Shown in pieces: positions 1 to 10,789 of a stretch of DNA of 64,000 nt; position 1 is the stretch's first letter, and every line of letters starts with the position of its first letter. The notes beneath the pieces were generated by a model. It was not told the origin of the DNA, ran no database searches, and worked only from the letters and a program-made list of their open reading frames with translations. The DNA is from a candidate division WOR-3 bacterium (GTDB lineage: Bacteria; Hydrothermota; Tepidihabitantia; Tepidihabitantales; Tepidihabitantaceae): positions 488 through 64,487 of the forward strand of contig VGIR01000004.1 of NCBI GenBank assembly GCA_016867815.1, written 5' to 3'. The position numbers and the translations under genes were made by a program.

Positions 1-216
1 TCCGCGCCACATCCTGTGCTTGAGCTTGCCCAAGAGAATCTCGATCCGAGGCCCACTTCGGCGCCCCGCTGGATGGAGTTCGTAGATGCGGCGTGTCCAA
101 TCATTGGGGAACCTCGCTATCAGACGCCCGGTATTCGCACCAAAGCAGTCAACGTATCTGAGCAAGGCGTCTTCAGTCCTTAGCACCTCAGGGTCGACAG
201 CGAATTCGTGGAGCAT
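1..216 (-). CDS. Partial CDS (N-terminal ~72 aa; 3' end lies beyond the window start). Putative partner gene of the upstream ATPase; function unknown.
   Basis: On the minus strand the ATG at ~216 starts 6 nt below the ATPase stop codon (223-225). It reads open to the window edge (MLHEFAVDPEVLRTEDALLRYVDCFGANTGRLIARFPNDW...). Absent from the ORF track only because it is truncated. Confidence 0.35.
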   Translation of the reverse strand, partial: MLHEFAVDPEVLRTEDALLRYVDCFGANTGRLIARFPNDWTRRIYELHPAGRRSGPRIEILLGKLKHRMWRG

Positions 217-222
217 GTCCGC

Positions 223-1932
223 CTAGAAGAGCTCGGCCGCCCGTTCGGCAAAGAAACCACCGGGCCAATCCACTGCAAGGTCGCCGTCAGGCGTTAGCGG
301 CATTTCGCGAACGACGCTCCCTTCGTTTGTCGGTTCGACGTAGACGACCTGCACGTCCTTCGTCGTAACACGAATGGCGCCCTTGCCATCAGTCGTTTCG
401 CGGATTCGACGTAGGATACGCAGGAGCAGATGCTCGCTGTGAGTCTCGACTATGAACGTATTCTCGCGTTCGCTCAGCGCCGCCTTGATGAACACGTCGC
501 CAAGCTCGGCCTGCAGTGCCGGGTGCAGGTGTATCTCCGGCTGCTCAATGACGATGGTCGCACCCCTAGAACCATAGGCCTCCGCGAGAACCGGCAGAAC
601 TTGGCTTATCCCCACTCCGATATCCCGATGGCTCACCAGAGTACCTGTGCGCTCGTCCGTCAGCTGCAGTTCGATGGCCGCCGGACCCTTCTCTCGTAGT
701 CGCTCCAGCGCAAGACGGATCTCAACTGGATCGTGATTCTGCGCCGAGAGTACCCGGGCGAGCGGCTCTACATCGTAGTAGGGATGCGCCTCAAGCCTGA
801 ACGGGGTCTGTAGCAGCCCTGAGCCAAGCCAGCGGTTCACAGCCTCGCGCACTTCTGAGTCAGTCCTGACTACGTCCCACGCAGATGCGCCGGAGGAATG
901 GTAGTTCGGGTCATACTCGCCATAAGTGATCAACCGCCTCGGAGGGTAGGCACGGAACGGGCCCAGGTACCGCATGCTGCCAAAGCCGCCAGCTATTCGC
1001 GCGTGCAGGTTTCTCACCATATCGTTCAGCTCTGCAAAGGGCACAGCCGGGATCCAATGCTCGGCAGTCTTCCGCAGGCTACAGATGTGCTGACGATAGG
1101 CTTCGTGGGACTCGGTTTCCTCACTCCAACTCAACGGGCCATCGCGACGCTCCTCGTAGTCAACGTCAGTGATGCCTCGTTCCTGTTTCCATTCTTCCCA
1201 CGTCACGTACCCCGGCAGCTCTCTGTCATCAGTCTGCAGAGTCGCTGTCAATTCACCGGCCGACTCCTGGCGGACCTTCACGGCGTCCCCGTCCTCACCG
1301 TGTAGCCGCTGTGCAACAAGCCCGGGGCACTTGGCGGCGATGCCGGTTACCTCAAACCACGGCCAGAAGTAGTCAGCCTCCATCTCCGCATAGACCTTAT
1401 CGTCTCCGGCCAAAGGGTAGTTCCCAGAGTCGGGGGTCTCCTCCTCAGTGAACACGTGGAGCTTCTCGGCTGCGCGCGTCCCGATTTGGGTCAACGCCAA
1501 GGGGGCATCGGAGCTCTCCCTGGTCAGCCGGATGCGTCCGCCTTCACTTTCAAGTGTGTATTCGCGGACGTACGGCTTCTTGTCGAATGCGAGTCGGACG
1601 CACACATTCCAGTCGTTGTCCAACAAGTGGCTCGCCTCGTCGGGCAGCGGCGGTTTCGCGAGCCGGAAGCCGAGCTCAACGTCGGCGTTCACGTCCCGCC
1701 TGAAAACGTACTGACGAAACCCGCCGAGGTCGACGTTGTCTCCGCCTATCTGAGTCGTGTGGGCGTCGAGGTTCTCCCTCGTGACGCCCTCATGGGCGAG
1801 TAGCAGCGCGTGTATGAGGCTGGACTTCCCGCCGCTGTTCGGCCCGAAGACCAGCGTGATGGGCTTGATAGGCAACCTCTGCGTGTCCCTGAATGCCTTG
1901 AACCCTCCAACCCGAAATTCCGTCAAGAACAC
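223..1932 (-). CDS. ABC-type AAA ATPase of the OLD/PtuA/AriA class (AAA_21-like N-terminus with a DUF3696-like C-terminal H-loop region). Candidate defence ATPase.
   Basis: Walker A GPNSGGKSS near the N-terminus. C-terminal ...TIVIEQPEIHLHPALQ... motif typical of AAA_15/AAA_21/DUF3696 ATPases. No Toprim or HNH domain inside the protein. A small downstream ORF follows on the same strand. Confidence 0.7.
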   Translation of the reverse strand: MFLTEFRVGGFKAFRDTQRLPIKPITLVFGPNSGGKSSLIHALLLAHEGVTRENLDAHTTQIGGDNVDLGGFRQYVFRRDVNADVELGFRLAKPPLPDEASHLLDNDWNVCVRLAFDKKPYVREYTLESEGGRIRLTRESSDAPLALTQIGTRAAEKLHVFTEEETPDSGNYPLAGDDKVYAEMEADYFWPWFEVTGIAAKCPGLVAQRLHGEDGDAVKVRQESAGELTATLQTDDRELPGYVTWEEWKQERGITDVDYEERRDGPLSWSEETESHEAYRQHICSLRKTAEHWIPAVPFAELNDMVRNLHARIAGGFGSMRYLGPFRAYPPRRLITYGEYDPNYHSSGASAWDVVRTDSEVREAVNRWLGSGLLQTPFRLEAHPYYDVEPLARVLSAQNHDPVEIRLALERLREKGPAAIELQLTDERTGTLVSHRDIGVGISQVLPVLAEAYGSRGATIVIEQPEIHLHPALQAELGDVFIKAALSERENTFIVETHSEHLLLRILRRIRETTDGKGAIRVTTKDVQVVYVEPTNEGSVVREMPLTPDGDLAVDWPGGFFAERAAELF

Positions 1933-2260
1933 GTGTACCTCCTCATGCGCCTCATCGTCTTATGTGACAGAGCACAGCAGCACAGGCCACAACCGGATCG
2001 ATCCTGGACAAGCCGAACAATGCAGTCCATCCTCGTACACCCGAACAACCGGAGGCTGCAGTACTCGTGCTGGATTATGGGTGATACCGAGACGGAGTCA
2101 AGCCGAGAGCGGCTGCGTGACTACTACCGGAAAGCAGAGTGGAGGGCGGACGCGATGACGGGGATTTCATCGCGGTGGAGGGCGCGGAAGTCGAGTAGGT
2201 ACTCGTCCTACTCGACCCTCCGAACACCGGCGGCCGATGGGGACAGCTGGCCTCTGGTCG

Positions 2261-3940
2261 CTAGCGGCTCAATCCCCGATACAGCGTGCCTTTGCGCACG
2301 CCCAGCCATTCCAGCGCTCCGTCGTCCCGGAAGACCGGACCGCCGTGGATGACGTCATGCTCCGGTCCGGGCCGTCCGTCGATGATTACGAACTCCTTCT
2401 TGCCCTCCCGGGCCCAGTGCGCCGTACGCCGGCTGTCCGGGCTGAACGCGAACCGGTCCAGGCCGGGATAGGCCGGCCCGGGAACGCCGTCGATCACGAC
2501 CCGGCGCTTGCCGCCGCTGTCCGCCTGGTAGGCCACGCGCCGGCTGTCCGGGCTGAAAACCATACTGCCCCAAGCGATCTCGTCGTACTTCGGTCCAGCC
2601 TGGCCATCCACCATCGCGAACTGCCCCGTGGCAGTCTTCACTCCGTAAGCCACGCGCCGGCTGTCCGGGCTGAAGACGCACCAGTCCCATACGTCCTCGT
2701 GCGCCGGGCCGGGCACGCCGTCGGTTACCAGGAACGCCTGCTCGCCCTGCAGCGCGAAGTAGACCACGCGACGGCCATCCGGGCTGAACGAGAGCCCGTC
2801 GATGAAGTCGTACGCCGGCCCGGGATTCCCGTCGACCACCGCACGCTGCTGCTGGCCATCTAGGACGGCGTAGGCGACTCGCCCGCCCTGCGGGCTGAAG
2901 ACCGGCGTTGAGACCTGCGCGTATTCCGGCCCGGCCAGCGTGTCAACCACCACGAGCCGCTTTGCGCCCTGGCGCGCCTGGTAGGCTGCGCGGGCCCCGT
3001 CCGGGCTGAATGCCAGACCCTCGATGAAGTAATACTCCCGACCGGCCTTGCCGTCGAGTACGACCCGCTGTTCCCCGACGTCGCCCGCAGCGTAGGCCAG
3101 CCGCCCGCCCACCGGGCTGAAAAGAAGCGGCCCAATGACCTCGTACTCCGCCCCGGGCAGGCTGTCGACCACGACCAGGTGCTTGTCACCCCGGCGCGCC
3201 TTGTACGCTACGTGCCGGCTGTCGGCACTGAACCGCTGATCGCTAATCTCGTCGTAGTCCGGGCCGGGCTTGCCGTCCACGACCAGGAACTGCCTGCCTT
3301 CGCGGCTCGCCCTGTACGCCACGCGTCGGCTGTCCGGGCTGAACAACGGCGCCGCACCCGCATCGTAGTCGTATTCCGGACCAGCAATGCCGTCGACCAC
3401 GACCCGCTGTTTCTCTTGGTCGAGAGCAACCCAGGCAATGCGCCGGCTGTCTGGGCTGAAAACCGTGAACAGCTCGCCCACGGCGCCGCACTTCGGCCCG
3501 GGCATGCCGTCCAGCACCACGCGCTGGCCATCACCGTCCTGCACGATACCCGCCACGTGCTTTCCGTCCTGGCTGAACGTGACCGTGAACGCGTAGACGT
3601 CGTCATACGCGGCCCCTGGCCGGCCGTCGATCACCAGGAATGCCTTGTTGTTCTTGATCCCGGTGAAGCAGAACCGCGCGCCATTCGGGCTGAACACCAG
3701 ATTGTTTTCGCGAACCGCATCCCACGTCCCGGGCAGCAGCTTGCCGTCGAGCCAGACGCTGTAACCGGAGTCGTCCGCTACGACGCAGGCAGCATGCAGT
3801 CCGTCCGCGCTGTAGGTGAAATCCTCGACCGGGTTCGGCAGCGCGCCGAGTACGGTCTCGGTCACGCTGCCCACCGCCTGCGCGCCGAGTGCCAGCGGTA
3901 ACAGGCTGGCTATCAGGACTGTGAATCGGACCAGTTTCAT
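2261..3940 (-). CDS. Secreted PD40 (WD40-like beta-propeller, TolB-like) repeat protein, paralog A.
   Basis: About 13 tandem ~39-aa repeats (V/IDGxPGPxYD....FSPDSRRxAY). Signal peptide MKLVRFTVLIASLLPLALGAQA begins at an internal ATG (3940) preceded by GGGAGA. The track ORF's longer N-terminal extension is spurious. Confidence 0.75.
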   Translation of the reverse strand: MKLVRFTVLIASLLPLALGAQAVGSVTETVLGALPNPVEDFTYSADGLHAACVVADDSGYSVWLDGKLLPGTWDAVRENNLVFSPNGARFCFTGIKNNKAFLVIDGRPGAAYDDVYAFTVTFSQDGKHVAGIVQDGDGQRVVLDGMPGPKCGAVGELFTVFSPDSRRIAWVALDQEKQRVVVDGIAGPEYDYDAGAAPLFSPDSRRVAYRASREGRQFLVVDGKPGPDYDEISDQRFSADSRHVAYKARRGDKHLVVVDSLPGAEYEVIGPLLFSPVGGRLAYAAGDVGEQRVVLDGKAGREYYFIEGLAFSPDGARAAYQARQGAKRLVVVDTLAGPEYAQVSTPVFSPQGGRVAYAVLDGQQQRAVVDGNPGPAYDFIDGLSFSPDGRRVVYFALQGEQAFLVTDGVPGPAHEDVWDWCVFSPDSRRVAYGVKTATGQFAMVDGQAGPKYDEIAWGSMVFSPDSRRVAYQADSGGKRRVVIDGVPGPAYPGLDRFAFSPDSRRTAHWAREGKKEFVIIDGRPGPEHDVIHGGPVFRDDGALEWLGVRKGTLYRGLSR

Positions 3941-3962
3941 TTCATGTCTCCCTAGTTTGGCG

Positions 3963-5444
3963 TCATCGTCCTGGCGGCAGTCGCACCCGGAACAGCGAAT
4001 CACTGCGCACCGCGAGCCACTCGAGCGCGCCGTCGGCACGGAACTCGGGGCCGCCCAGCAGCCGGTCATACTCCGCGCCGGGCAGGCCATCGACCACGAC
4101 CAGCGCCCGGTAGCCCCGGCCCGCCCGAAAGGCAAAGCGCCGGCTGTCTGGGCTGAAGACCGGCCGCGCGGCATCGTTGTACACCGTCCCGGGTTTGCCG
4201 TCGAGCACGGCGAACCAGCGGTCGACCGAGTCGTTGGCGCAATAGGCCAGATGCCGGCTGTCCGGGCTGAAGATAACGCTCTCATCCCGGATATCGTAGT
4301 ACTCCGCGCCGGGCAGGCTGTCATCAATCACCCGGGTCCGGTCGTTCTGCCAGGCAAGGACGGCCATGCGCCGGCTGTCCGGGCTGAAGACAGCCGGCTC
4401 GACACCGTCGTATGCCGGCCCGGGCACGCCGTCGCGCACCGTGAAAACCTTGTCTCCCTGCCGGGCCCGGTAGGCCAAGCTGCGGCTGTCCGGGCTGAAC
4501 ACCAAGTAATGCGCGTCCGCGTATTCCGGACCTTCCCGGCCGTCGACCACGACCCGGTACTGCTCGCCCCGGCGGGCGCAGTAGGCCATGCGCCGGCTGT
4601 CCGGGCTGAAGACCGGGCCGTCGGTGATCTCGTCGTACGCCGAACCGGGAGCAGTATCCTGCACAACAAACCACTTGTCGCCCCGGCGGGCCGAGTAAGC
4701 GAAGCTCCGGCCGTCCGGGCTGAAAACCGCCCCTTCCCGGCCGAGCGCGTCATACGCCGGCCCGGGCACCGAATCGACCACAATGAACTTTGCTTCGTCC
4801 TGCTCGGCGGAAAAGGCCAGGCGTCGGCTGTCCGGGCTGAAGACCAGTTCCCGGACACTCGTGTACTCCGGCCCGACCCGGCCGTCAATTACCACACGCC
4901 GGGCGCCTCTTTGCCAGAGGATGTACGCCGCGCGCCGGCTGTCCGGGCTGAAGATGAGCCCCCAGGCACCGTAGCCGCGCGGCCCGGCGACGCCGTCAAT
5001 CACCATCCACTGCCAGCTGCTGTCCCGCGCCGCGTAGCCGGTGCGCCGGCTGTCCGGGCTGAAGATCTGGTCGCCCAGCTCAATCTCATCGCATACCGGT
5101 CCGGGCCGGCCGTCGATCACGGCAAACGCCTTGCCGCCCTTCATGGCAATGTAAAGAGTATGTTGTCCGTCCGGGCTGAACGCGAGTTCACCGATCCAGA
5201 TCGAATCATAGATCCCGGCCTGCACTTTGCCGTCAAACCAGGCGCTCTGGCCGGAGTCGACCGCGACCACGCCTGCCGCGTGGCGCAGGTCCCGGCTGCG
5301 GACAATCTGGCCGACCAGCGCCGGAACCGGGCCGAGGAACTTCTCGGTCGCCTTCCCGGCCGGCCGCGCCCAGGTCAGAAAAGGGAGAAGACCGACGATC
5401 AACGCGCCGCGCAGACGAGGTCTCAAAGTCGATTCCTTTCGCAT
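3963..5444 (-). CDS. Secreted PD40 beta-propeller repeat protein, paralog B.
   Basis: Same repeat architecture as paralog A. Signal peptide MRKESTLRPRLRGALIVGLLPFLTWA at an internal ATG. Lies directly upstream of paralog A (23-nt gap). Confidence 0.75.
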   Translation of the reverse strand: MRKESTLRPRLRGALIVGLLPFLTWARPAGKATEKFLGPVPALVGQIVRSRDLRHAAGVVAVDSGQSAWFDGKVQAGIYDSIWIGELAFSPDGQHTLYIAMKGGKAFAVIDGRPGPVCDEIELGDQIFSPDSRRTGYAARDSSWQWMVIDGVAGPRGYGAWGLIFSPDSRRAAYILWQRGARRVVIDGRVGPEYTSVRELVFSPDSRRLAFSAEQDEAKFIVVDSVPGPAYDALGREGAVFSPDGRSFAYSARRGDKWFVVQDTAPGSAYDEITDGPVFSPDSRRMAYCARRGEQYRVVVDGREGPEYADAHYLVFSPDSRSLAYRARQGDKVFTVRDGVPGPAYDGVEPAVFSPDSRRMAVLAWQNDRTRVIDDSLPGAEYYDIRDESVIFSPDSRHLAYCANDSVDRWFAVLDGKPGTVYNDAARPVFSPDSRRFAFRAGRGYRALVVVDGLPGAEYDRLLGGPEFRADGALEWLAVRSDSLFRVRLPPGR

Positions 5445-5610: not shown

Positions 5611-7080
5611 CTAGTGCTGGAATGCGGACTGGAGGGCGGCGGCGATGATGGGAATCTCATCCTGGCGGAGGGTCCGGAAATCGAGCAGGTATTCGCCCTT
5701 CTCGACCCGGCCGAATACCGGTGGGCGATTGAGGCGCATCCGGCGGGCAAGCTCGTCCACGTGCACGGTCTTTGGCCGAACCGAAACCACGCGTGATTCG
5801 AGGCTCTCGGTGGCGAGCGACCCACCGCCGATTTCGGATAGCGCGGGCTTCACCTGGACTGCGGCCTTGTCCTTGAGCCTGGCCTGCACCTGACTCACAA
5901 GCGTCTCTGCCTCTTCCTGCATCTGCTGGGGAGTCTTGAGCAGGAGCTGGAACAGAGCGTGCTCCTTGACGACTCGCTCTTCGTCGAGGAAGAGCTCCAG
6001 GGTCCGTTCGAGCACGGCGTAGGTCAGCTTGCCGCAGCGCATGGCACGGGTGAGCGGGTGTTTCTTCAAGAGGTCGATGTACTTCTTCTTGCCGACGATG
6101 ATGCCTGCCTGCGACGCGGAAATCAGCTTGTCCCCGGAGAAGCAGATGACATCGGCTCCGGCTTTGACCGACTCCTGCACCAACGGTTCCTTGGGCAGGC
6201 CGTACTTCGAGAGGTCTATGAGCGCGCCGGAACCAAGGTCATCCACCACCAGCACCTTGGCCTCACGCGCCAGCCCGACCAGCTCTTCAAGTCCCACTTC
6301 CTTGGTGAACCCGGTAATCTTGTAGTTGGAAGTGTGGACCCGGAGCAGCAATGCCGTCTCGGACGTGATGGCATTCTTGTAGTCACGCAGGTGGGTACGG
6401 TTGGTTGTGCCTACCTCTACCATCTTGCATCCACTCTGCTGCATCACGTCGGGGATGCGGAATGCTCCGCCGATTTCGATGAGCTGGCCCCGCGAGACAA
6501 TCGCCTCCCTGCCCTTGGCCAGCCCCGAGAGGATGAGCAGCGTCGCGGCGCAGTTGTTGTTGACGACCATCGCCGCCTCGGCCCCGGTCAGCTCGCAGAG
6601 CAGCGGCTCGATGTGTCGATAGCGGCTGCCGCGCCTGCCAGTCTCAAGGTCGATTTCGAGGCTGGAGAAATGCTCGCTCACGTCGGCCAGCGCTTCCTGC
6701 GCGGCCTTGGACAACGGCGCGCGACCCAGCCCGGTATGCAGGATGACGCCGAGTCCGTTGATCGCCCGAGTCAGGGTCGGCTTGCGCTCGCGTTCAAGAC
6801 GCCGCTCTAGTTCGGTCTGGTCGTAGGCAACGCCCTCGCCAGCGTGAATCTTCTCCCGCAGTTCATCCAGGTAGACCCGTATCGTACGCACCGCCATTCG
6901 ACGGTGGACGTGAGACAGAACCGGCTTCAGTTCCTCACTCTCGAGCAGCTTGTCTACCGATGGCAGAGACCGAAAAGTGGCCCCGTGATCTAGTGGTCCA
7001 GTGTTCGAGTGTCCGGTCGGGAGTCCCGCACTTGACCTCTTGACCACTTGAGCACTAGACCGCTGCTGTTTCTTCTTCAC
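5611..7080 (-). CDS. selA: L-seryl-tRNA(Sec) selenium transferase (selenocysteine synthase).
   Basis: Full-length similarity to SelA (..FRSLPSVDKLL.., VVNNNCAATLLIL, VSRGQLIEIGGAFRIPDVM, HTSNY, FSGDKL...). GTG start at 7080 abuts the mcsB stop. The first ~35 codons are encoded by palindromic repeat element E1. Confidence 0.85.
   Translation of the reverse strand: MKKKQQRSSAQVVKRSSAGLPTGHSNTGPLDHGATFRSLPSVDKLLESEELKPVLSHVHRRMAVRTIRVYLDELREKIHAGEGVAYDQTELERRLERERKPTLTRAINGLGVILHTGLGRAPLSKAAQEALADVSEHFSSLEIDLETGRRGSRYRHIEPLLCELTGAEAAMVVNNNCAATLLILSGLAKGREAIVSRGQLIEIGGAFRIPDVMQQSGCKMVEVGTTNRTHLRDYKNAITSETALLLRVHTSNYKITGFTKEVGLEELVGLAREAKVLVVDDLGSGALIDLSKYGLPKEPLVQESVKAGADVICFSGDKLISASQAGIIVGKKKYIDLLKKHPLTRAMRCGKLTYAVLERTLELFLDEERVVKEHALFQLLLKTPQQMQEEAETLVSQVQARLKDKAAVQVKPALSEIGGGSLATESLESRVVSVRPKTVHVDELARRMRLNRPPVFGRVEKGEYLLDFRTLRQDEIPIIAAALQSAFQH
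6988..7062. repeat. Palindromic repeat element E1 (GTCNAGTG-type octamers x4, centre CGGGACTCCCG, inverted octamers x4), in-frame inside the selA 5' coding region.
   Basis: Read from the sequence; the plus and minus strands are near-identical. A homologous element sits in the lolD 5' region. Confidence 0.6.
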
Positions 7081-8120
7081 GGATGCACCAGCGTCTCTCG
7101 GACGAATGTGGCGCGGCGCTCGTCGCGTTCCGCCGCGGTCAGGTTCTCGCCCAGCAGCGCCTGCAGGTTCGCAGGACGGACAAGTATCATCAGCCGCGTC
7201 ACCTGCTCCAGGCTGATCTCGTTGACTATGCCAAGGGTGACTCCGAGCCTGAGGCCGGCAATCAGGTTTATCGCCTCGTCCGAAGAGAGGACGCGCGCGC
7301 CCCGCAACAGGCCAAGCGACCGGAAGACCTTGTCTTCGACCTCGACCCGCAGCTTCTTCATCAGGTACTCACGCGCCTTCCGCTCGTACAGAATCACCTG
7401 CCGACTGATGTCGGCGATCGTCTCGATGATCTCCCACTCGGTCTGGCCGACCGTCTTCTGGTTGGAAATCTGGAAGAAGTTGCCCTTGGTTTCAGTTCCC
7501 TCGCCGTACAGGCCGCGCACCGCGAGGCCGATATGGATGGCCCCGCGCAGCACCTTTTCGATCTCGCGGGTGATGACCAGCGCGGGGAGGTGCACGAGAA
7601 CCGAGGCCCGCATTCCGGTGCCGAGGTTGGTCGGGCACGCGGTCAGGAATCCGAACTCGGGCGAGAAGGCGTACTGAAGCTGGCTCTCCAGCTTCTCATC
7701 AAGAGCCGCCGCCGCAGTGAAGGCCTCGGGGAAATCGAGGCCGGATGCCATCACCTGGAACCGAAGGTGGTCTTCTTCGTTGATCATCAGGCTCGTGGCT
7801 TCATCGTTGCCGACGTAGAACCCGCGCTTTGCCTTGGAGGCGATGAAATCGGGCGAAGCGAGGTGACGCTCGATCAGGTACTGGCACTGCGGGTCGGCAA
7901 GCTGCTCGTTCTGGAGGAACTTGCCGTTCTCCAGGTAGCCGGTGTCGGTAAGCGCCCAGCGTACGACGTCAACGGTACGTTCGTGGTCGCGGGGCTCTGC
8001 CCGGTGGGTGAAGGGTACGTCGGCCAGGTTCCGCGCCAGCCGGACGCGGGTGGAGAGGACTACGTCAGCTTCCGGGCCGGAGGCCGCAAGCCACTTCCCG
8101 ACCGAACCGCCTGGACTCAT
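7077..8120 (-). CDS. mcsB: Protein arginine kinase (ATP:guanido phosphotransferase family).
   Basis: Phosphagen-kinase signature CPTNLGTGMRASV and an McsB-like N-terminus (VVLSTRVRLARNLADVPF). Confidence 0.8.
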   Translation of the reverse strand: MSPGGSVGKWLAASGPEADVVLSTRVRLARNLADVPFTHRAEPRDHERTVDVVRWALTDTGYLENGKFLQNEQLADPQCQYLIERHLASPDFIASKAKRGFYVGNDEATSLMINEEDHLRFQVMASGLDFPEAFTAAAALDEKLESQLQYAFSPEFGFLTACPTNLGTGMRASVLVHLPALVITREIEKVLRGAIHIGLAVRGLYGEGTETKGNFFQISNQKTVGQTEWEIIETIADISRQVILYERKAREYLMKKLRVEVEDKVFRSLGLLRGARVLSSDEAINLIAGLRLGVTLGIVNEISLEQVTRLMILVRPANLQALLGENLTAAERDERRATFVRETLVHP

Positions 8121-8133
8121 AGAAGCGGAGTAT

Positions 8134-8212
8134 CACCACCAAGGCACCAAGACACCAAGTCCGAGAACGGACTTCCTGTCCGGTCTGCTTTGTGCCTTTG
8201 TATCTTTGTGGC
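8134..8212. repeat. Palindromic repeat element E2 (ACCACCAAG GCACCAAG ACACCAAG, a 28-nt spacer, then CTTTGTGC CTTTGTAT CTTTGTGG) in the mcsA-mcsB intergenic region, ~22 nt upstream of the mcsB ATG.
   Basis: Read from the sequence. The arms differ from perfect complements by one systematic position per heptamer. Confidence 0.65.
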
Positions 8213-8220
8213 GGGCATCC

Positions 8221-8709
8221 TCACTCCCCTTCAGTTTTCCGGAGTTGGTCGCGCAGGGCCGCGGCCTTCTCGTAGTCTTCGTCCTGTATGGCGCCGGACA
8301 GCGCCTCGCGCAGCTTCTGGACGTTCATCTTCATCTGCGCCTGCTTGCGCCCTCCGCTCGCGGTCCTGCCGACGTGCTGCACCGCGTCGTGGATCCGTCT
8401 TATCAGCGGTACGAGCTGATCGTGAAATGACGTGTAACACTCGGCGCAGCCGAGCCGGGCCTGCCGTTTGAACTCGGCATAGGAGAGGCCGCAATTCGGG
8501 CAGATCAGCTTCGAATCGCCCTCATCGATGCGGTTCTTCAGCTCGGTGATGATCTCGGCTACGTTCGCCTTCAGCTTCTCGACTTCGGTGAACCCTCGCT
8601 GGCGGGCGCATTCGGGGCAGATGGTGATCTCCGTGACCTTGCCCTCCTTGTCGAGCTGGCTCACCTTCATTGTCGCCTCACCCTTGCCGCAGAGGTCACA
8701 TGCCTTCAT
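8221..8709 (-). CDS. mcsA: McsA-like activator of protein arginine kinase (zinc-ribbon plus UVR domain).
   Basis: MKACDLCGK...ICPECA...CPNCG...CAECY Cys pairs and a C-terminal UVR motif (EDYEKAAALRDQL). Start placed at the internal MKAC; the track ORF extends further upstream. Confidence 0.6.
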   Translation of the reverse strand: MKACDLCGKGEATMKVSQLDKEGKVTEITICPECARQRGFTEVEKLKANVAEIITELKNRIDEGDSKLICPNCGLSYAEFKRQARLGCAECYTSFHDQLVPLIRRIHDAVQHVGRTASGGRKQAQMKMNVQKLREALSGAIQDEDYEKAAALRDQLRKTEGE

Positions 8710-8732
8710 ATGGATGGAAAAACCGGAGGTCC

Positions 8733-8800
8733 GCCACAAGGGCACAAAGACCCGAAGAGGCCCCAGACTCTGGAACCTTCGGGACTTTGTGTTCTAGTGG
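8733..8800. repeat. Palindromic repeat element E3 (CACAAGG GCACAAAG ACCCGAAG, a 19-nt loop, then CTTCGGG ACTTTGTG TTCTAGTG) between lolD and mcsA.
   Basis: Near-perfect 15-bp inverted repeat. Belongs to the same heptamer family. Confidence 0.6.
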
Positions 8801-9573
8801 TTGGATTCCTCATCGAGCTTCCCTGCGGCGAGATGCAGCCGTCGCGTCGCCCGGTCCGCAACCGCCTGGTTGTGAGTCACGACCAGAATCGTCATCTTCC
8901 TTTCGTTGCTCAAGCGCACCATCAAGTCGACCAGGGCGGCCGCCGACGTCGTATCGAGGTTACCGGTCGGTTCGTCCGCCAGGATTACTGCCGGGTCGTT
9001 CACCAGCGCCCGGCCCATGGCGGCGCGCGCCTGCTCGCCGCCCGACAGCTCAGCCGGACGATGGGTCAGGCGGGAGGTGAACCCGATCTCCTCGAGTACT
9101 TTGTGCGCCCTGACCAACGCCTCGGCACGGGCAACACCCGCCACCAACAGCGGCATCGCCACATTCTCGAGAACCGTGAACTCGGAGAGCAGGTGGTGGA
9201 ACTGGAACACAAAGCCCAGTTTCCGGTTTCTCACCTCGTGCAGCTCCGACTCAGGGTAGCTGAAAACATCCAGTGAATCAAGCAGCACCCGGCCTCTGGT
9301 GGGCCGATCCAGAGCGCCGAGAACGTGCAGCAGGGTTGACTTGCCGGTGCCCGAAGGACCGAGAATGGCCACCAGGTCGCCGCGCTGCACTTCCAGATCG
9401 ACACCCCGCAGGATTTCAAGCCGCTCCGTCCCGGTTTCGAATACGCGCCAGACATCGGTCGCCTGAAGGACAGGCGTGTGGTCGAGTGGCGCCGTGGTCG
9501 AGTGGTCAAGTGCCGAACTCCCGGCCGAACACTGGTTCACTGGACCACTAGACCACTGCTTCTGCTCACTCAT
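8794..9573 (-). CDS. lolD: ABC transporter ATP-binding protein, LolD/FtsE/MacB family (lipoprotein release).
   Basis: Walker A GPSGTGKST, signature LSGGEQ, Walker B ILADEPTG. Its start overlaps the stop of the LolC/E-type permease by 8 nt. The N-terminal ~35 aa are encoded by repeat element E4, so the true start is uncertain. Confidence 0.75.
   Translation of the reverse strand: MSEQKQWSSGPVNQCSAGSSALDHSTTAPLDHTPVLQATDVWRVFETGTERLEILRGVDLEVQRGDLVAILGPSGTGKSTLLHVLGALDRPTRGRVLLDSLDVFSYPESELHEVRNRKLGFVFQFHHLLSEFTVLENVAMPLLVAGVARAEALVRAHKVLEEIGFTSRLTHRPAELSGGEQARAAMGRALVNDPAVILADEPTGNLDTTSAAALVDLMVRLSNERKMTILVVTHNQAVADRATRRLHLAAGKLDEESNH
9480..9560. repeat. Palindromic repeat element E4 (GTCTAGTG GTCCAGTG AACCAGTG, a centre, then CACTTGAC CACTCGAC CAC..CACTCGAC) inside the lolD 5' coding region.
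   Basis: Aligns with E1 in the same orientation and reading frame. Confidence 0.55.
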
Positions 9574-10789
9574 ACCTTATCGCCTCCAGCGGCACGAGCC
9601 TCGCTGCCTGCAGCGCCGGATAGATGGTGGCGGCAAAGGTAATAGCAATAGCCGAGATACAGACTAACGTCACATCCTGCACCATGACCTGCACCGGCAG
9701 GTTCTTGATGAAGTAGACGTCGCCGGGCAAAGAGACGAAGCGATACTTGTTCAGCAGCCAGCATGCGACCAGGCCGAAGACCGAACCCGTAACGGTACCG
9801 ATGATACCGATGAACCCGCCGGCCAGTATGAAGATGCGCGTCACGGTTGAGGACTTGGCCCCCATCGCTTTCAGGATACCTATCTCGCGGGTCTTGCGGA
9901 TGACCATCATCGTCAGCATGCCGATGATGTTGAACGCGGCAACCAGCACGATCAGCACCAGCACGATGAACGTAACGACCTTTTCCAGGCGCAAAGCGGT
10001 GAAGAGATTGCGGTTCTGCATTATCCAGTCGGTAGCGCGATACGGGTATCCAAGCTGCCGCGTGATGCGCCGCCCGATGCGGGCCGCAGCGTAGACGTCA
10101 CGCACGCGTAACTCGAACCCGGTAACCATTTTCTCCATGCCGAGGAACTGCTGGATTCCGGCCAGCGAAAGGTAGACGAAGCTCGAATTGTACTCGTACA
10201 TGCCGCAGTCGAAGATGCCGTTCACGACGAAGTACTTGGTGCGGGGCAGGAAGCCGAAGGCGGTCATCGTCCCGCCGAAGGGCGAAGCGAGGTTCAGCGA
10301 GTCACCGATGGAAAGCCCGAGTATACGCGCCAATTCGATGCCGATGACAACCCCGCTCGAGTCAAAGTCGAACTGCCCCTGGACAATGGTGCCGGATATG
10401 TCGGTGATATCGTCTTCGTACTCCGGATCGACGCCGCGAACCACGACACCCTCGACCCCGTTCTCGGTCCTTACCAACGTCTTGGCGTAGATGAACGGAG
10501 CGACCGACAGGACACCCGGAACCCGGGCAATCTCCTGCTGGAGCGAGTCGCCTCCGCCGGCCGGATACGGGATCGGCTCGAACGAATACTTGGCCACAAC
10601 CACATGCGGGGTAGCGCCGAGAATCCGATCCTTCAGCTCCTGGTGGAATCCGTTCTCGACCGAGAGAACGATGATGATTGCCGCAACGCCGACGAACACG
10701 CCACCCATCGCAATCGCGGTTATGCCGGAGAAAGTGCGCCTGCCCCTGCCGCGCAGGTACCGCCGCGCCATGAAGAGTTCGAATCTCAT
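9566..10789 (-). CDS. Lipoprotein-releasing system permease, LolC/LolE family (FtsX-like).
   Basis: N-terminus MRFELFMARRYLRGRGRR..., four TM segments and an FtsX-like C-terminus. Positioned in an operon with lolD. Confidence 0.8.
   Translation of the reverse strand: MRFELFMARRYLRGRGRRTFSGITAIAMGGVFVGVAAIIIVLSVENGFHQELKDRILGATPHVVVAKYSFEPIPYPAGGGDSLQQEIARVPGVLSVAPFIYAKTLVRTENGVEGVVVRGVDPEYEDDITDISGTIVQGQFDFDSSGVVIGIELARILGLSIGDSLNLASPFGGTMTAFGFLPRTKYFVVNGIFDCGMYEYNSSFVYLSLAGIQQFLGMEKMVTGFELRVRDVYAAARIGRRITRQLGYPYRATDWIMQNRNLFTALRLEKVVTFIVLVLIVLVAAFNIIGMLTMMVIRKTREIGILKAMGAKSSTVTRIFILAGGFIGIIGTVTGSVFGLVACWLLNKYRFVSLPGDVYFIKNLPVQVMVQDVTLVCISAIAITFAATIYPALQAARLVPLEAIRYE

What the first reader, a model, noticed from the sequence alone, without database searches (positions are those of the whole stretch)
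1..1932. OLD/PtuA/AriA-class ABC ATPase with a truncated downstream partner: a probable anti-phage defence module cut by the window edge
The 569-aa protein has a Walker A motif at residue ~30 and a C-terminal IEQPEIHLHP H-loop/DUF3696-like region. That combination is characteristic of the ATPase components of two-gene defence systems (Septu PtuA, PARIS AriA, and AAA_21-type partners of Toprim/HNH nucleases). A second ORF starts 6 nt after its stop on the same strand and runs off the window (72 aa visible, no recognisable motif yet). The module is unrelated to the neighbouring PD40/selA genes, consistent with a defence islet.
Basis: partly seen in the sequence, partly recalled or inferred. Interest (0 to 1): 0.5.

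Follow-up and report, generated by a model that had tools for sequence, protein, structure and literature searches.

The report
Menshen-like ATPase–nuclease pair, effector broken
The window edge holds an intact ATPase gene and the start of its partner gene, a pair that resembles known anti-phage systems and usually sits behind type I restriction genes, but here a mobile element has cut off the partner's predicted nuclease half, so the module is probably dead.

Summary
Window 223-1932 (-) encodes a 569-aa ABC ATPase. A second ORF starts 6 nt after its stop and runs off the window.

The ATPase is not OLD/PtuA/AriA-class. Its best matches are the PADLOC models PDC-M55A, NsnB (Menshen) and HEC-03B (E 1e-47 to 1e-36). 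It has NsnB-like motif deviations: Walker B E-Q, a GxG signature and a DUF3696-type tail.

In 76 of 80 homologous loci from many phyla the next gene is one unannotated ~313-aa family with no Pfam or PADLOC match. A confident AlphaFold model (pLDDT 94.6) shows a PIN-like N-domain without the full acidic set, plus a PLD/MIT_C-like C-domain with conserved D, H and H-D-R. That is the NsnC "inPIN + PB-PLD1" architecture.

No NsnA/DUF262 gene accompanies the pair. Instead, 48 of 80 loci have type I hsdS directly upstream.

In this genome the partner is only 172 aa. Identical metagenome contigs show an IS256-family element inserted about 283 nt beyond the window edge. It removes the PLD half and supplies the stop codon.

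Verdict: a decayed, orphan copy of an unnamed, restriction-linked, Menshen-like two-gene family. The family is moderately interesting. This copy is not.

The parts
223..1932 (-). ABC ATPase gene, 569 aa, intact (NsnB/HEC-03/PDC-M55A-like, with a DUF3696-type C-terminal tail)
   Evidence: ORF. Pfam AAA_15 and AAA_21 at E~1e-16. PADLOC PDC-M55A 2.2e-47, NsnB 2.5e-40, HEC-03B 1.6e-36. AlphaFold model with an ABC/SMC-head fold, pLDDT 79.
1819..1845 (-). Walker A / P-loop GPNSGGKSS (residues 30-38)
   Evidence: Read. G30, N32, S33, G35, K36, S37 and S38 are invariant in 60 homologues.
601..618 (-). Signature-motif equivalent GVGISQ (residues 439-444), a GxG variant of SGG
   Evidence: G439, G441, S443 and Q444 are invariant. 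The Menshen paper reports GxG for NsnB (PMC12065111).
535..555 (-). Walker B IVIEQPE (residues 460-466) with E463-Q464 in place of the D-E dyad
   Evidence: E463, Q464, P465 and E466 are invariant. NsnB has an analogous E-N replacement.
430..447 (-). H-loop ETHSEH (residues 496-501)
   Evidence: E496 to H501 are invariant.
226..363 (-). C-terminal tail (residues 524-569): beta-hairpin plus WPGGFF and a terminal helix (DUF3696-like). In NsnB the equivalent tail is the predicted docking site for the partner.
   Evidence: Pfam DUF3696 E=0.013. W556, P557, G559, F560 and F561 are invariant. Helix 562-568 in the model. The docking role is inferred from PMC12065111.
1..216 (-). First 72 codons of the partner gene (PIN-like N-domain). 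The gene continues 284 native nt beyond the window and is then interrupted by an IS256-family element.
   Evidence: Homologous to the ~313-aa partner family: 32% identity to the L014 partner at E=2e-23, and jackhmmer E down to 4.5e-54.
1938..1944 (-). Shine-Dalgarno-like GAGGAGG, 5 nt upstream of the GTG start
   Evidence: Read.
2074..2101 (-). Possible sigma-70-type promoter (TTGACT-16-CATAAT, 10/12) in the 328-nt gap upstream of the ATPase. Not above chance.
   Evidence: 1 found against 0.7 expected.

Best explanation
Window 1-1932 (-) holds a two-gene ATPase-effector cassette of the kind used in anti-phage defence. Gene 1 is an intact NsnB-like ABC ATPase.

Gene 2 belongs to an unannotated ~313-aa family. 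Its N-terminal half is a PIN-like fold lacking the full catalytic acidic set (an 'inPIN'). Its C-terminal half is a PLD-superfamily, MIT_C-like domain with conserved D174, H206 and H253-D-R255, which is the predicted nuclease or toxic effector. This matches the NsnB-NsnC part of Menshen (the inPIN + PB-PLD1 variant), but without the NsnA/DUF262 sensor. In most genomes the pair is instead fused to the 3' end of, or embedded in, a type I hsdR-M-S operon.

Inferred mechanism, by analogy with the predicted NsnB4-NsnC2 complex and with the solved PARIS and Septu complexes. An ATPase oligomer holds the effector through its C-terminal DUF3696 tails. A phage cue would change the ATP-bound state and release or activate the PLD-like effector, aborting infection. 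Given the R-M linkage, that cue could be an anti-restriction protein or a disabled or stalled R-M complex.

In this genome, named candidate division WOR-3 by NCBI, the cassette is orphan: there are no hsd genes. An IS256-family element has inserted after codon ~166 of gene 2. It deletes every conserved PLD residue and donates the last 5-6 codons and the stop. This copy is therefore most likely non-functional as a defence system.

Shown: homology, gene order, fold, motif conservation, R-M linkage, IS junction. Inferred: defence role, complex formation, trigger, nuclease activity.
For: ATPase identity:
- PADLOC PDC-M55A 2.2e-47, NsnB 2.5e-40, HEC-03B 1.6e-36.
- Walker B E-Q and a GxG signature are invariant in 60 homologues. 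The Menshen paper describes parallel deviations for NsnB.
- The model has an ABC head fold.

Partner family:
- It lies immediately downstream in 76 of 80 genome loci. Median length is 313 aa. Distances between the ATPase stop and the start of the longest partner ORF cluster around -4 to +6 nt.
- The other 4 loci carry a same-sized protein with a GHDRFV motif.
- No conserved third gene: 106 downstream proteins fall into 101 clusters.
- There are 517 clusters at 90% identity. At 50% identity there are 1544 representatives with E<=1e-3, all unnamed.

Fold:
- AF2 pLDDT 94.6, pTM 0.89.
- Foldseek best hit is MITD1 MIT_C, 4a5z/2ymb.
- Conserved residues in 79 sequences: D174 99% acidic, H206 95%, H253 94%, R255 94%. 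Only E7 and D13 are conserved acidics in the N-domain.

R-M linkage: hsdS is upstream in 48 of 80 loci, hsdM in 45 and hsdR in 36. In 17 loci hsdS ends within 50 nt of the ATPase start.

Precedents:
- HEC-03 (ABC ATPase + PIN protein) defends, and needs both genes.
- Menshen NsnC has an inPIN + PB-PLD1 variant with an HDR motif.

IS truncation:
- All 15 contigs carrying the identical pair break 7-97 nt after the 172-aa ORF.
- The sequence from GAGGATGTCCC onward is shared by 17 other flanks besides this locus.
- It is the left end of a ~1.43-kb element encoding a Transposase_mut protein, E=1e-32, with 29-nt terminal inverted repeats.
Against: - No experiment exists for this family.
- The partner matches no PADLOC model, including NsnC and the HEC-03 partner.
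- MIT_C in MITD1 is not a demonstrated enzyme. The catalytic K of the HKD motif is R here, so nuclease activity is unproven.
- The ATPase-partner complex was not modelled.
- The R-M link is only contextual and is absent in this window.
- The C-terminal remainder of the partner was not found. An IS-mediated deletion or rearrangement, rather than a simple insertion, cannot be excluded.
- The retained ATPase plus inPIN fragment could have some residual role.
Confidence: 0.6

Rival explanations
1. The pair is an accessory of type I restriction-modification rather than an autonomous defence system. It would be an extra nuclease/ATPase that processes stalled or blocked Hsd complexes, or that regulates restriction. 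On this reading the orphan copy here never had an independent function.
For: The hsdS/M/R genes lie directly upstream on the same strand in 45-60% of loci, often with overlapping stop and start codons. Some copies sit between hsdS and hsdR, for example L070, L089 and L106.
Against: About 40% of loci, including this one, have no adjacent hsd genes, yet the pair stays intact and coupled. Related ATPase-effector pairs (HEC-03, and the ATPase-effector part of Menshen) defend on their own. Other R-M-embedded ABC ATPase systems (PrrC, PARIS) are autonomous abortive-infection modules.
Confidence: 0.15
2. The pair is a toxin-antitoxin-like addiction module: a PLD/PIN toxin held by an ATPase antitoxin. 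It would stabilise R-M islands and other mobile DNA, with no phage-sensing role.
For: It has a two-gene architecture with a tightly coupled predicted toxin. AAA_21 is annotated as an 'AbiEii/type IV TA' domain. Copies decay repeatedly: L012 is frameshifted beside a transposase, L105 is fragmentary, and this locus is IS-disrupted.
Against: The gene order (ATPase first, effector second), the large ABC ATPase and the closest HMM matches are all to defence systems or candidates. The distinction from abortive infection is partly semantic.
Confidence: 0.1
3. One reading: a Septu (PtuA), PARIS (AriA) or OLD-class ATPase with an HNH or Toprim partner that is merely cut by the window edge.
For: It has the same broad ABC ATPase class. 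AriA, GajA and PtuA models give weak hits. PtuA, GajA and OLD structures appear among many ABC-head Foldseek matches.
Against: Scores against these models are 20-30 orders of magnitude weaker than against NsnB, PDC-M55A or HEC-03B. PtuA scores 14.9 bits against a cut-off of 500. The partner is PIN-like plus PLD-like, with no HNH or Toprim. The partner ends in an IS, not just at the window edge.
Confidence: 0.03
4. The 172-aa partner is the native full-length protein of this lineage, a short ATPase-binding adaptor, and the adjacent repeat is unrelated.
For: The 172-aa ORF has a stop codon, is identical in 15 contigs from several samples and is annotated in NCBI as a complete hypothetical protein.
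Against: The last 5-6 codons and the stop lie inside sequence shared by 17 other IS junctions. The ORF breaks off right after the conserved (D/E)P motif of the PLD domain, whereas 78 homologues continue for ~140 more residues.
Confidence: 0.02
5. A housekeeping SMC/RecF/RecN-type ATPase.
For: N-terminal SMC_N/RecF-like P-loop matches and SMC or Rad50 heads as top Foldseek hits.
Against: All scores are far below family cut-offs, for example RecF 14.3 against 172 and SMC 15 against 567-729. There is no coiled coil. Distribution is patchy, and the gene is linked to R-M genes and to a PLD partner.
Confidence: 0.01

Closest known systems
Menshen NsnB-NsnC (the variant whose NsnC is inPIN + PB-PLD1)
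   Same: - An ABC ATPase with a DUF3696 tail, a Walker B acid-amide dyad instead of D-E, and a GxG signature.
- A downstream effector with an inactive-PIN-like N-domain and a MIT_C-like PLD domain carrying an acidic residue after a strand plus an HDR motif.
   Different: - No NsnA (ParB-DUF262) gene. The upstream gene is hsdS in 60% of loci and a PD40 protein here.
- The ATPase is ~560 aa with a much larger insert than the 345-position NsnB model.
- The partner matches no PADLOC NsnC model.
HEC-03 (Hma-embedded candidate 03: ABC ATPase + PIN protein; validated, both genes required)
   Same: A two-gene ATPase plus PIN-fold partner, without a DUF262 sensor, embedded in a larger defence operon. 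The ATPase model matches at E=1.6e-36.
   Different: The partner here has an extra PLD/MIT_C domain and its PIN-like domain lacks the full acidic set. There is no HMM match to the HEC-03 partner. The host operon is type I R-M, not Hma.
PDC-M55 (untested PADLOC candidate)
   Same: It is the best ATPase HMM match, E=2.2e-47.
   Different: The match is in three stretches. The partner matches no PADLOC model, so it is not PDC-M55's second gene.
PARIS (AriA/AriB), Septu (PtuA/PtuB), Gabija (GajA), OLD
   Same: All are ABC ATPases that control a nuclease effector. PARIS is often R-M-embedded and is triggered by anti-restriction proteins.
   Different: Sequence similarity is weak: AriA 1e-17, GajA 1e-8, PtuA below cut-off. 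Their effectors are Toprim or HNH, not PIN+PLD.
PrrC / RloC (type I R-M-embedded anticodon nucleases)
   Same: ABC-type NTPase-regulated nucleases embedded in hsd operons. PrrC is held latent by the R-M complex and is released by the phage anti-restriction peptide Stp. This is the model for the proposed trigger.
   Different: They are single polypeptides with a different nuclease domain. No homology was detected beyond the ABC core.
MITD1 MIT_C domain / PLD (HKD) nucleases (Nuc, NucT, Zucchini, the SauUSI nuclease domain)
   Different: HxR rather than HxK. No activity is known for MIT_C. The domain is fused to a PIN-like domain and coupled to an ABC ATPase.

Membership tests
Menshen (NsnABC) | NsnA: a ParB-DUF262 + ParBDB sensor gene immediately upstream of the ATPase | tested here: not met
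   The upstream genes in the window are PD40-repeat proteins and SelA. In 80 homologous loci the upstream gene is hsdS in 48. DUF262 is not among the 25 most frequent families of 68 non-R-M upstream neighbours.
Menshen (NsnABC) | NsnB: an ABC ATPase with a DUF3696 tail, Walker B not D-E, and GxG instead of SGG | tested here: met
   PADLOC NsnB E=2.5e-40. The L012 homologue aligns over profile positions 3-335 of 345. E463-Q464 and G439/G441 are invariant. DUF3696 is weak here (0.013) but is annotated on homologues.
Menshen (NsnABC) | NsnC: an N-terminal inactive PIN plus a C-terminal effector domain, encoded directly after the ATPase | tested here: inconclusive
HEC-03 | An ABC ATPase homologous to the HEC-03 ATPase | tested here: met
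   PADLOC HEC-03B E=1.6e-36.
HEC-03 | A VapC-like PIN-domain partner, with the pair embedded in an Hma system | tested here: not met
   The partner gives no hit to any PADLOC model. The context is type I R-M or none, and no Hma system was identified by name in the loci examined. It shares only the PIN-like fold.
PARIS (AriA/AriB) | An AriA ATPase plus an AriB DUF4435/Toprim nuclease | tested here: not met
   AriA models match only residues ~400-503, at E 1e-17 to 1e-16. The partner has no Toprim domain and no Pfam or PADLOC hit.
Septu (PtuA/PtuB) | PtuA (NCBIfam NF041760) plus an HNH nuclease PtuB | tested here: not met
   PtuA scores 14.9 bits against a cut-off of 500. The partner has no HNH domain.
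OLD / Gabija GajA | An ABC ATPase fused to a C-terminal Toprim nuclease domain | tested here: not met
   The C-terminus is a beta-hairpin plus a helix. There is no Toprim Pfam hit. GajA models match at E~1e-8 on short stretches only.
PLD (HKD) superfamily, for the partner family's C-domain | The PLD fold with an HxK(x)4D catalytic motif | tested here: inconclusive
IS256 family, for the element that truncates the partner | A Mutator-type DDE transposase, a ~1.3-1.5 kb element, terminal inverted repeats, multiple copies, and an 8-9 bp target duplication | tested here: met
   Transposase_mut E=1e-32. The element spans about L024:2-1431 with 29-nt inverted repeats, 83% complementary. The same terminus sits beside 17 other flanks besides this locus. 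The target duplication could not be verified, because no copy with both flanks is in hand.
RecF/RecN/SMC housekeeping ATPases | A score above the NCBIfam equivalog cut-offs | tested here: not met
   RecF scores 14.3 against 172. SMC scores 15 against 567-729.

The most novel reading that the evidence does not exclude
The intact family would be a new, widespread defence system: a sensor-less Menshen derivative. Its NsnB-like ATPase and inPIN-PLD effector would use the adjacent type I R-M complex, or phage anti-restriction proteins that attack it, as the trigger. That would make it a two-protein analogue of PrrC or PARIS that guards restriction. It would also give the first functional evidence that MIT_C-type 'HDR' PLD domains are active nucleases, which bears on BrxL and eukaryotic MITD1.
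Probability: 0.3. Interest if true: 0.6.

Novelty: new variant of a known kind. Interest (0 to 1): 0.4.

Why it matters
- The partner family has no Pfam model, no PADLOC model and no name. Yet it is found in many phyla (for example Verrucomicrobiota, Planctomycetota and Cyanobacteria) and in several cultured strains.
- Its near-obligate coupling to an NsnB-like ATPase, and its frequent fusion to hsdRMS operons, make it a concrete and cheaply testable defence candidate.
- It also bears on two open questions: how Menshen-type ATPases are triggered when the DUF262 sensor is absent, and whether MIT_C-like PLD domains are enzymes.
- For annotation of this genome, the practical message is the reverse. 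The locus should be flagged as an IS-disrupted remnant, not counted as an active defence system.

Tried and rejected
1. Extending the contig. Exact-protein look-ups gave 15 contigs, and all break within 97 nt of the partner's stop. This led to the IS.
2. Looking for the IS or its ends inside the window: none.
3. Looking for the partner's C-terminal remainder among the 16 IS-junction contigs. tblastn with three homologous C-domains found nothing. A search for right-end junctions found only one, in L024, and it is unrelated.
4. Pfam, PADLOC and NCBIfam on the 72-aa and 172-aa partner and on full-length homologues: no hits.
5. A word-indexed search with the 172-aa partner found only itself. A profile of neighbours from the genome scan was needed to reach the family.
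6. A conserved third gene was sought downstream and rejected: 101 clusters for 106 proteins.
7. Compositional evidence for recent transfer: none. GC is ~0.60, as in the surroundings.
8. The promoter/terminator scan is not above chance.
9. Krishnan et al. 2020 (the ABC ATPase classification) is not in the held library, so whether it already lists this dyad could not be checked.
10. The WOR-3 genome is not among the best 80 loci returned by the genome scan.
Full report
**1. What is at the coordinates**

- On the minus strand, 223-1932 is a 569-aa ORF. It has a GTG start preceded by GAGGAGG and ends in TAG.
- Six nucleotides later an ATG at 216 opens a second ORF that leaves the window after 72 codons.
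- Upstream on the same strand lie two PD40-repeat paralogues and selA, after a 328-nt gap.
The exception is the motif labels: IEQPEIHLHP is Walker B/D-loop, and the H-loop is ETHSEH at 496-501.

**2. The ATPase**

- Pfam gives AAA_15 and AAA_21 (E~1e-16) and a sub-threshold DUF3696 tail.
- Against PADLOC the best models are PDC-M55A (2.2e-47), NsnB of Menshen (2.5e-40) and HEC-03B (1.6e-36). AriA reaches only 1e-17 and GajA about 1e-8.
- NCBIfam PtuA, RecF and SMC all score far below their cut-offs.
- In alignments of 12 and 60 homologues, the following are invariant: Walker A, an E463-Q464 Walker B, a G439-x-G441 signature, the H-loop and a C-terminal WPGGFF.
- The Menshen paper reports comparable peculiarities for NsnB: the D-E dyad replaced by E-N, SGG replaced by GxG, and a DUF3696 tail (PMC12065111).
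- The AlphaFold model has pLDDT 79, with low confidence only in the insert at residues 154-295. It is an ABC head that matches SMC, Rad50, JetC, GajA, OLD and PtuA about equally (sequence level). Structure therefore places it in the class but does not discriminate within it.

**3. The partner is not just cut by the window**

- Exact-sequence look-ups found the identical gene pair on 15 metagenome contigs. In all of them the partner is 172 aa, and every contig stops 7-97 nt after its stop codon.
- NCBI names the partner as a hypothetical protein of a candidate division WOR-3 bacterium.
- A scan for the tail sequence found it in 16 metagenome contigs. Besides the partner locus it abuts 17 other flanks, always starting at GAGGATGTCCCTGTC.
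- One contig, L024, carries the whole element. It is ~1.43 kb with 29-nt imperfect terminal inverted repeats and a Mutator-type (IS256-family) transposase, Pfam E=1e-32.
- The native partner sequence therefore ends at ...PYFAPDEC. The codons for (G)RMSLS and the stop are IS sequence.
- The junction lies about 283 nt beyond window position 1 (L001:12216/12217).
- The missing part was not found in the material I could fetch.

**4. What the partner should look like**

- Three homologous ATPases examined first have a longer downstream gene with the same N-terminus (MLxEYAxxPEV).
- A scan of one genome per species returned 80 loci from many phyla. In 76 of them the gene right after the ATPase belongs to one family with a median length of 313 aa. 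Distances from the ATPase stop to the start of the longest partner ORF cluster around -4 to +6 nt.
- The other four loci, all betaproteobacterial, carry a different 335-351-aa protein with a GHDRFV motif at the same place. This hints at effector swapping.
- No third gene is conserved.
- The family has 517 clusters at 90% identity and 1544 representatives at 50% identity. All are 'hypothetical', with no Pfam and no PADLOC model.

**5. Fold of the partner**

- A full-length member (P0124) was modelled with pLDDT 94.6 and pTM 0.89.
- Across 79 sequences the conserved residues of the C-domain are D174, E204, H206, W249, H253, R255, G263, G269 and D271.
- The N-domain keeps only E7 and D13 as acidic positions, not the PIN quartet.
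- This is the architecture the Menshen study calls inPIN + PB-PLD1: an acidic residue after a strand plus an HDR motif, MIT_C-like.
- The window's copy retains the PIN-like domain and the first strand of the PLD domain (IVEPYF). It lacks every later conserved residue.

**6. Context in other genomes**

- hsdS lies directly upstream on the same strand in 48 of 80 loci, hsdM in 45 and hsdR in 36. In 17 loci hsdS ends within 50 nt of the ATPase start, and in a few hsdR follows the pair.
- Among the non-R-M upstream neighbours there is no recurring DUF262. Instead there are LysR regulators and assorted defence-type genes: other OLD-type ATPases, DUF2130, DUF3800, KwaB, NYN and pPIWI-associated nuclease.
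- The family is thus a two-gene cassette that is mostly appended to or embedded in type I R-M operons. It has no NsnA.

**7. How it most likely works**

- Shown: homology to NsnB-type ATPases, obligate pairing with a PIN-like/PLD-like protein, conservation of a putative PLD active site, and R-M linkage.
- Inferred from the predicted NsnB4-NsnC2 complex and from the solved PARIS and Septu complexes: an ATPase oligomer holds the effector through its DUF3696 tails. A phage cue alters the nucleotide state and frees or activates the effector.
- Inferred from the precedents of PrrC and PARIS: because the pair sits on R-M operons, the cue could be an anti-restriction protein or the disabled R-M complex.
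- The naturally occurring E-Q Walker B suggests a slow-hydrolysing, switch-like ATPase. This is speculation.
- Rivals are an R-M accessory function or a TA-like addiction module. The housekeeping and Septu/PARIS/OLD readings are rejected.

**8. This copy**

- It is orphan, with no hsd genes, and shows no compositional anomaly.
- The ATPase is intact.
- The effector gene is destroyed by the IS, and the same allele occurs in all sampled contigs. No intact close allele exists in a 5.8-billion-protein database.
- It is most simply a recently inactivated remnant.
- Similar decay is seen elsewhere: a frameshifted partner beside a transposase in L012 and fragments in L105.

**9. Novelty and score**

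- The components are of known kinds: an ABC ATPase plus a nuclease-like effector, with NsnB/NsnC-like domains.
- The NsnA-less, R-M-appended dyad with this partner family is not in PADLOC 2.0. I did not find it in the literature I could search. One key classification paper could not be read.
- I rate it a new variant of a known kind, with interest 0.4. It is a good, testable candidate family, but conceptually incremental, and the instance in this window is broken.

Noticed in passing
L010:2856-2966, L024:2-1431 (about 283 nt beyond window position 1): An IS256-family insertion sequence (~1.43 kb, Transposase_mut). Its terminus abuts 17 other flanks in the same lake metagenomes, so it is active or high-copy in this population and probably explains why assemblies of this genome fragment.
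   Followed up: yes
L025:1-1634 and L030:1-1730: Two short contigs whose ends are the same IS left end in inverted orientation (161 and 203 nt, 100% complementary) around ~1.3 kb of unrelated DNA. This is either head-to-head IS copies forming a composite structure or an assembly artefact.
   Followed up: partly
L021:10020-10223: The same ~75-nt IS terminus is followed by a different interior sequence. It may be a derivative or MITE-like element, or a variant end.
   Followed up: no
L079:~2090-4815 and 6001-8631: Two ATPase + partner modules lie in the same locus of a Verrucomicrobiota MAG (597+311 aa and 558+315 aa).
   Followed up: no
L043, L049, L054, L055 (gene after the ATPase, e.g. L049:7716-8720): Four betaproteobacterial loci replace the usual partner with an unrelated-looking 335-351-aa protein. 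It still shows a GHDRFV motif at the equivalent position, which suggests effector swapping like that described for NsnC. In L049 the next ORF (8724-9728) is also 335 aa; whether it is related to the first was not tested.
   Followed up: partly
L012:4464-5399 and 7695-8671: In another lineage the partner gene is split by a frameshift and a DDE_Tnp_1 transposase sits about 600 nt upstream of the ATPase gene. This is independent decay of the same cassette.
   Followed up: partly
window 2261-3940 (-) and 3963-5429 (-): Two tandem paralogous PD40/beta-propeller repeat proteins with GC of 0.65-0.70, noticeably higher than the ~0.60 of the flanking genes. The opposite strand carries long spurious ORFs because of the repeats.
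   Followed up: partly
window 535-555 (-), ATPase residues 463-464: The Walker B acidic dyad is naturally E-Q in all 60 homologues. An E-to-Q change at this position is what experimenters engineer to trap ABC/SMC heads in the ATP-bound state, as in the 'EQ' cohesin head structures among the Foldseek hits. This suggests a slow, switch-like ATPase.
   Followed up: no
L031, L034, L045, L064, L080, L096, L104, L110 (gene upstream of the ATPase): Eight of 68 non-R-M upstream neighbours match LysR-family regulators. The members most similar to the first one (L031) are divergently oriented genes in the loci listed here, most of them Verrucomicrobiota. This suggests a lineage-specific integration site or a dedicated regulator.
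   Followed up: no
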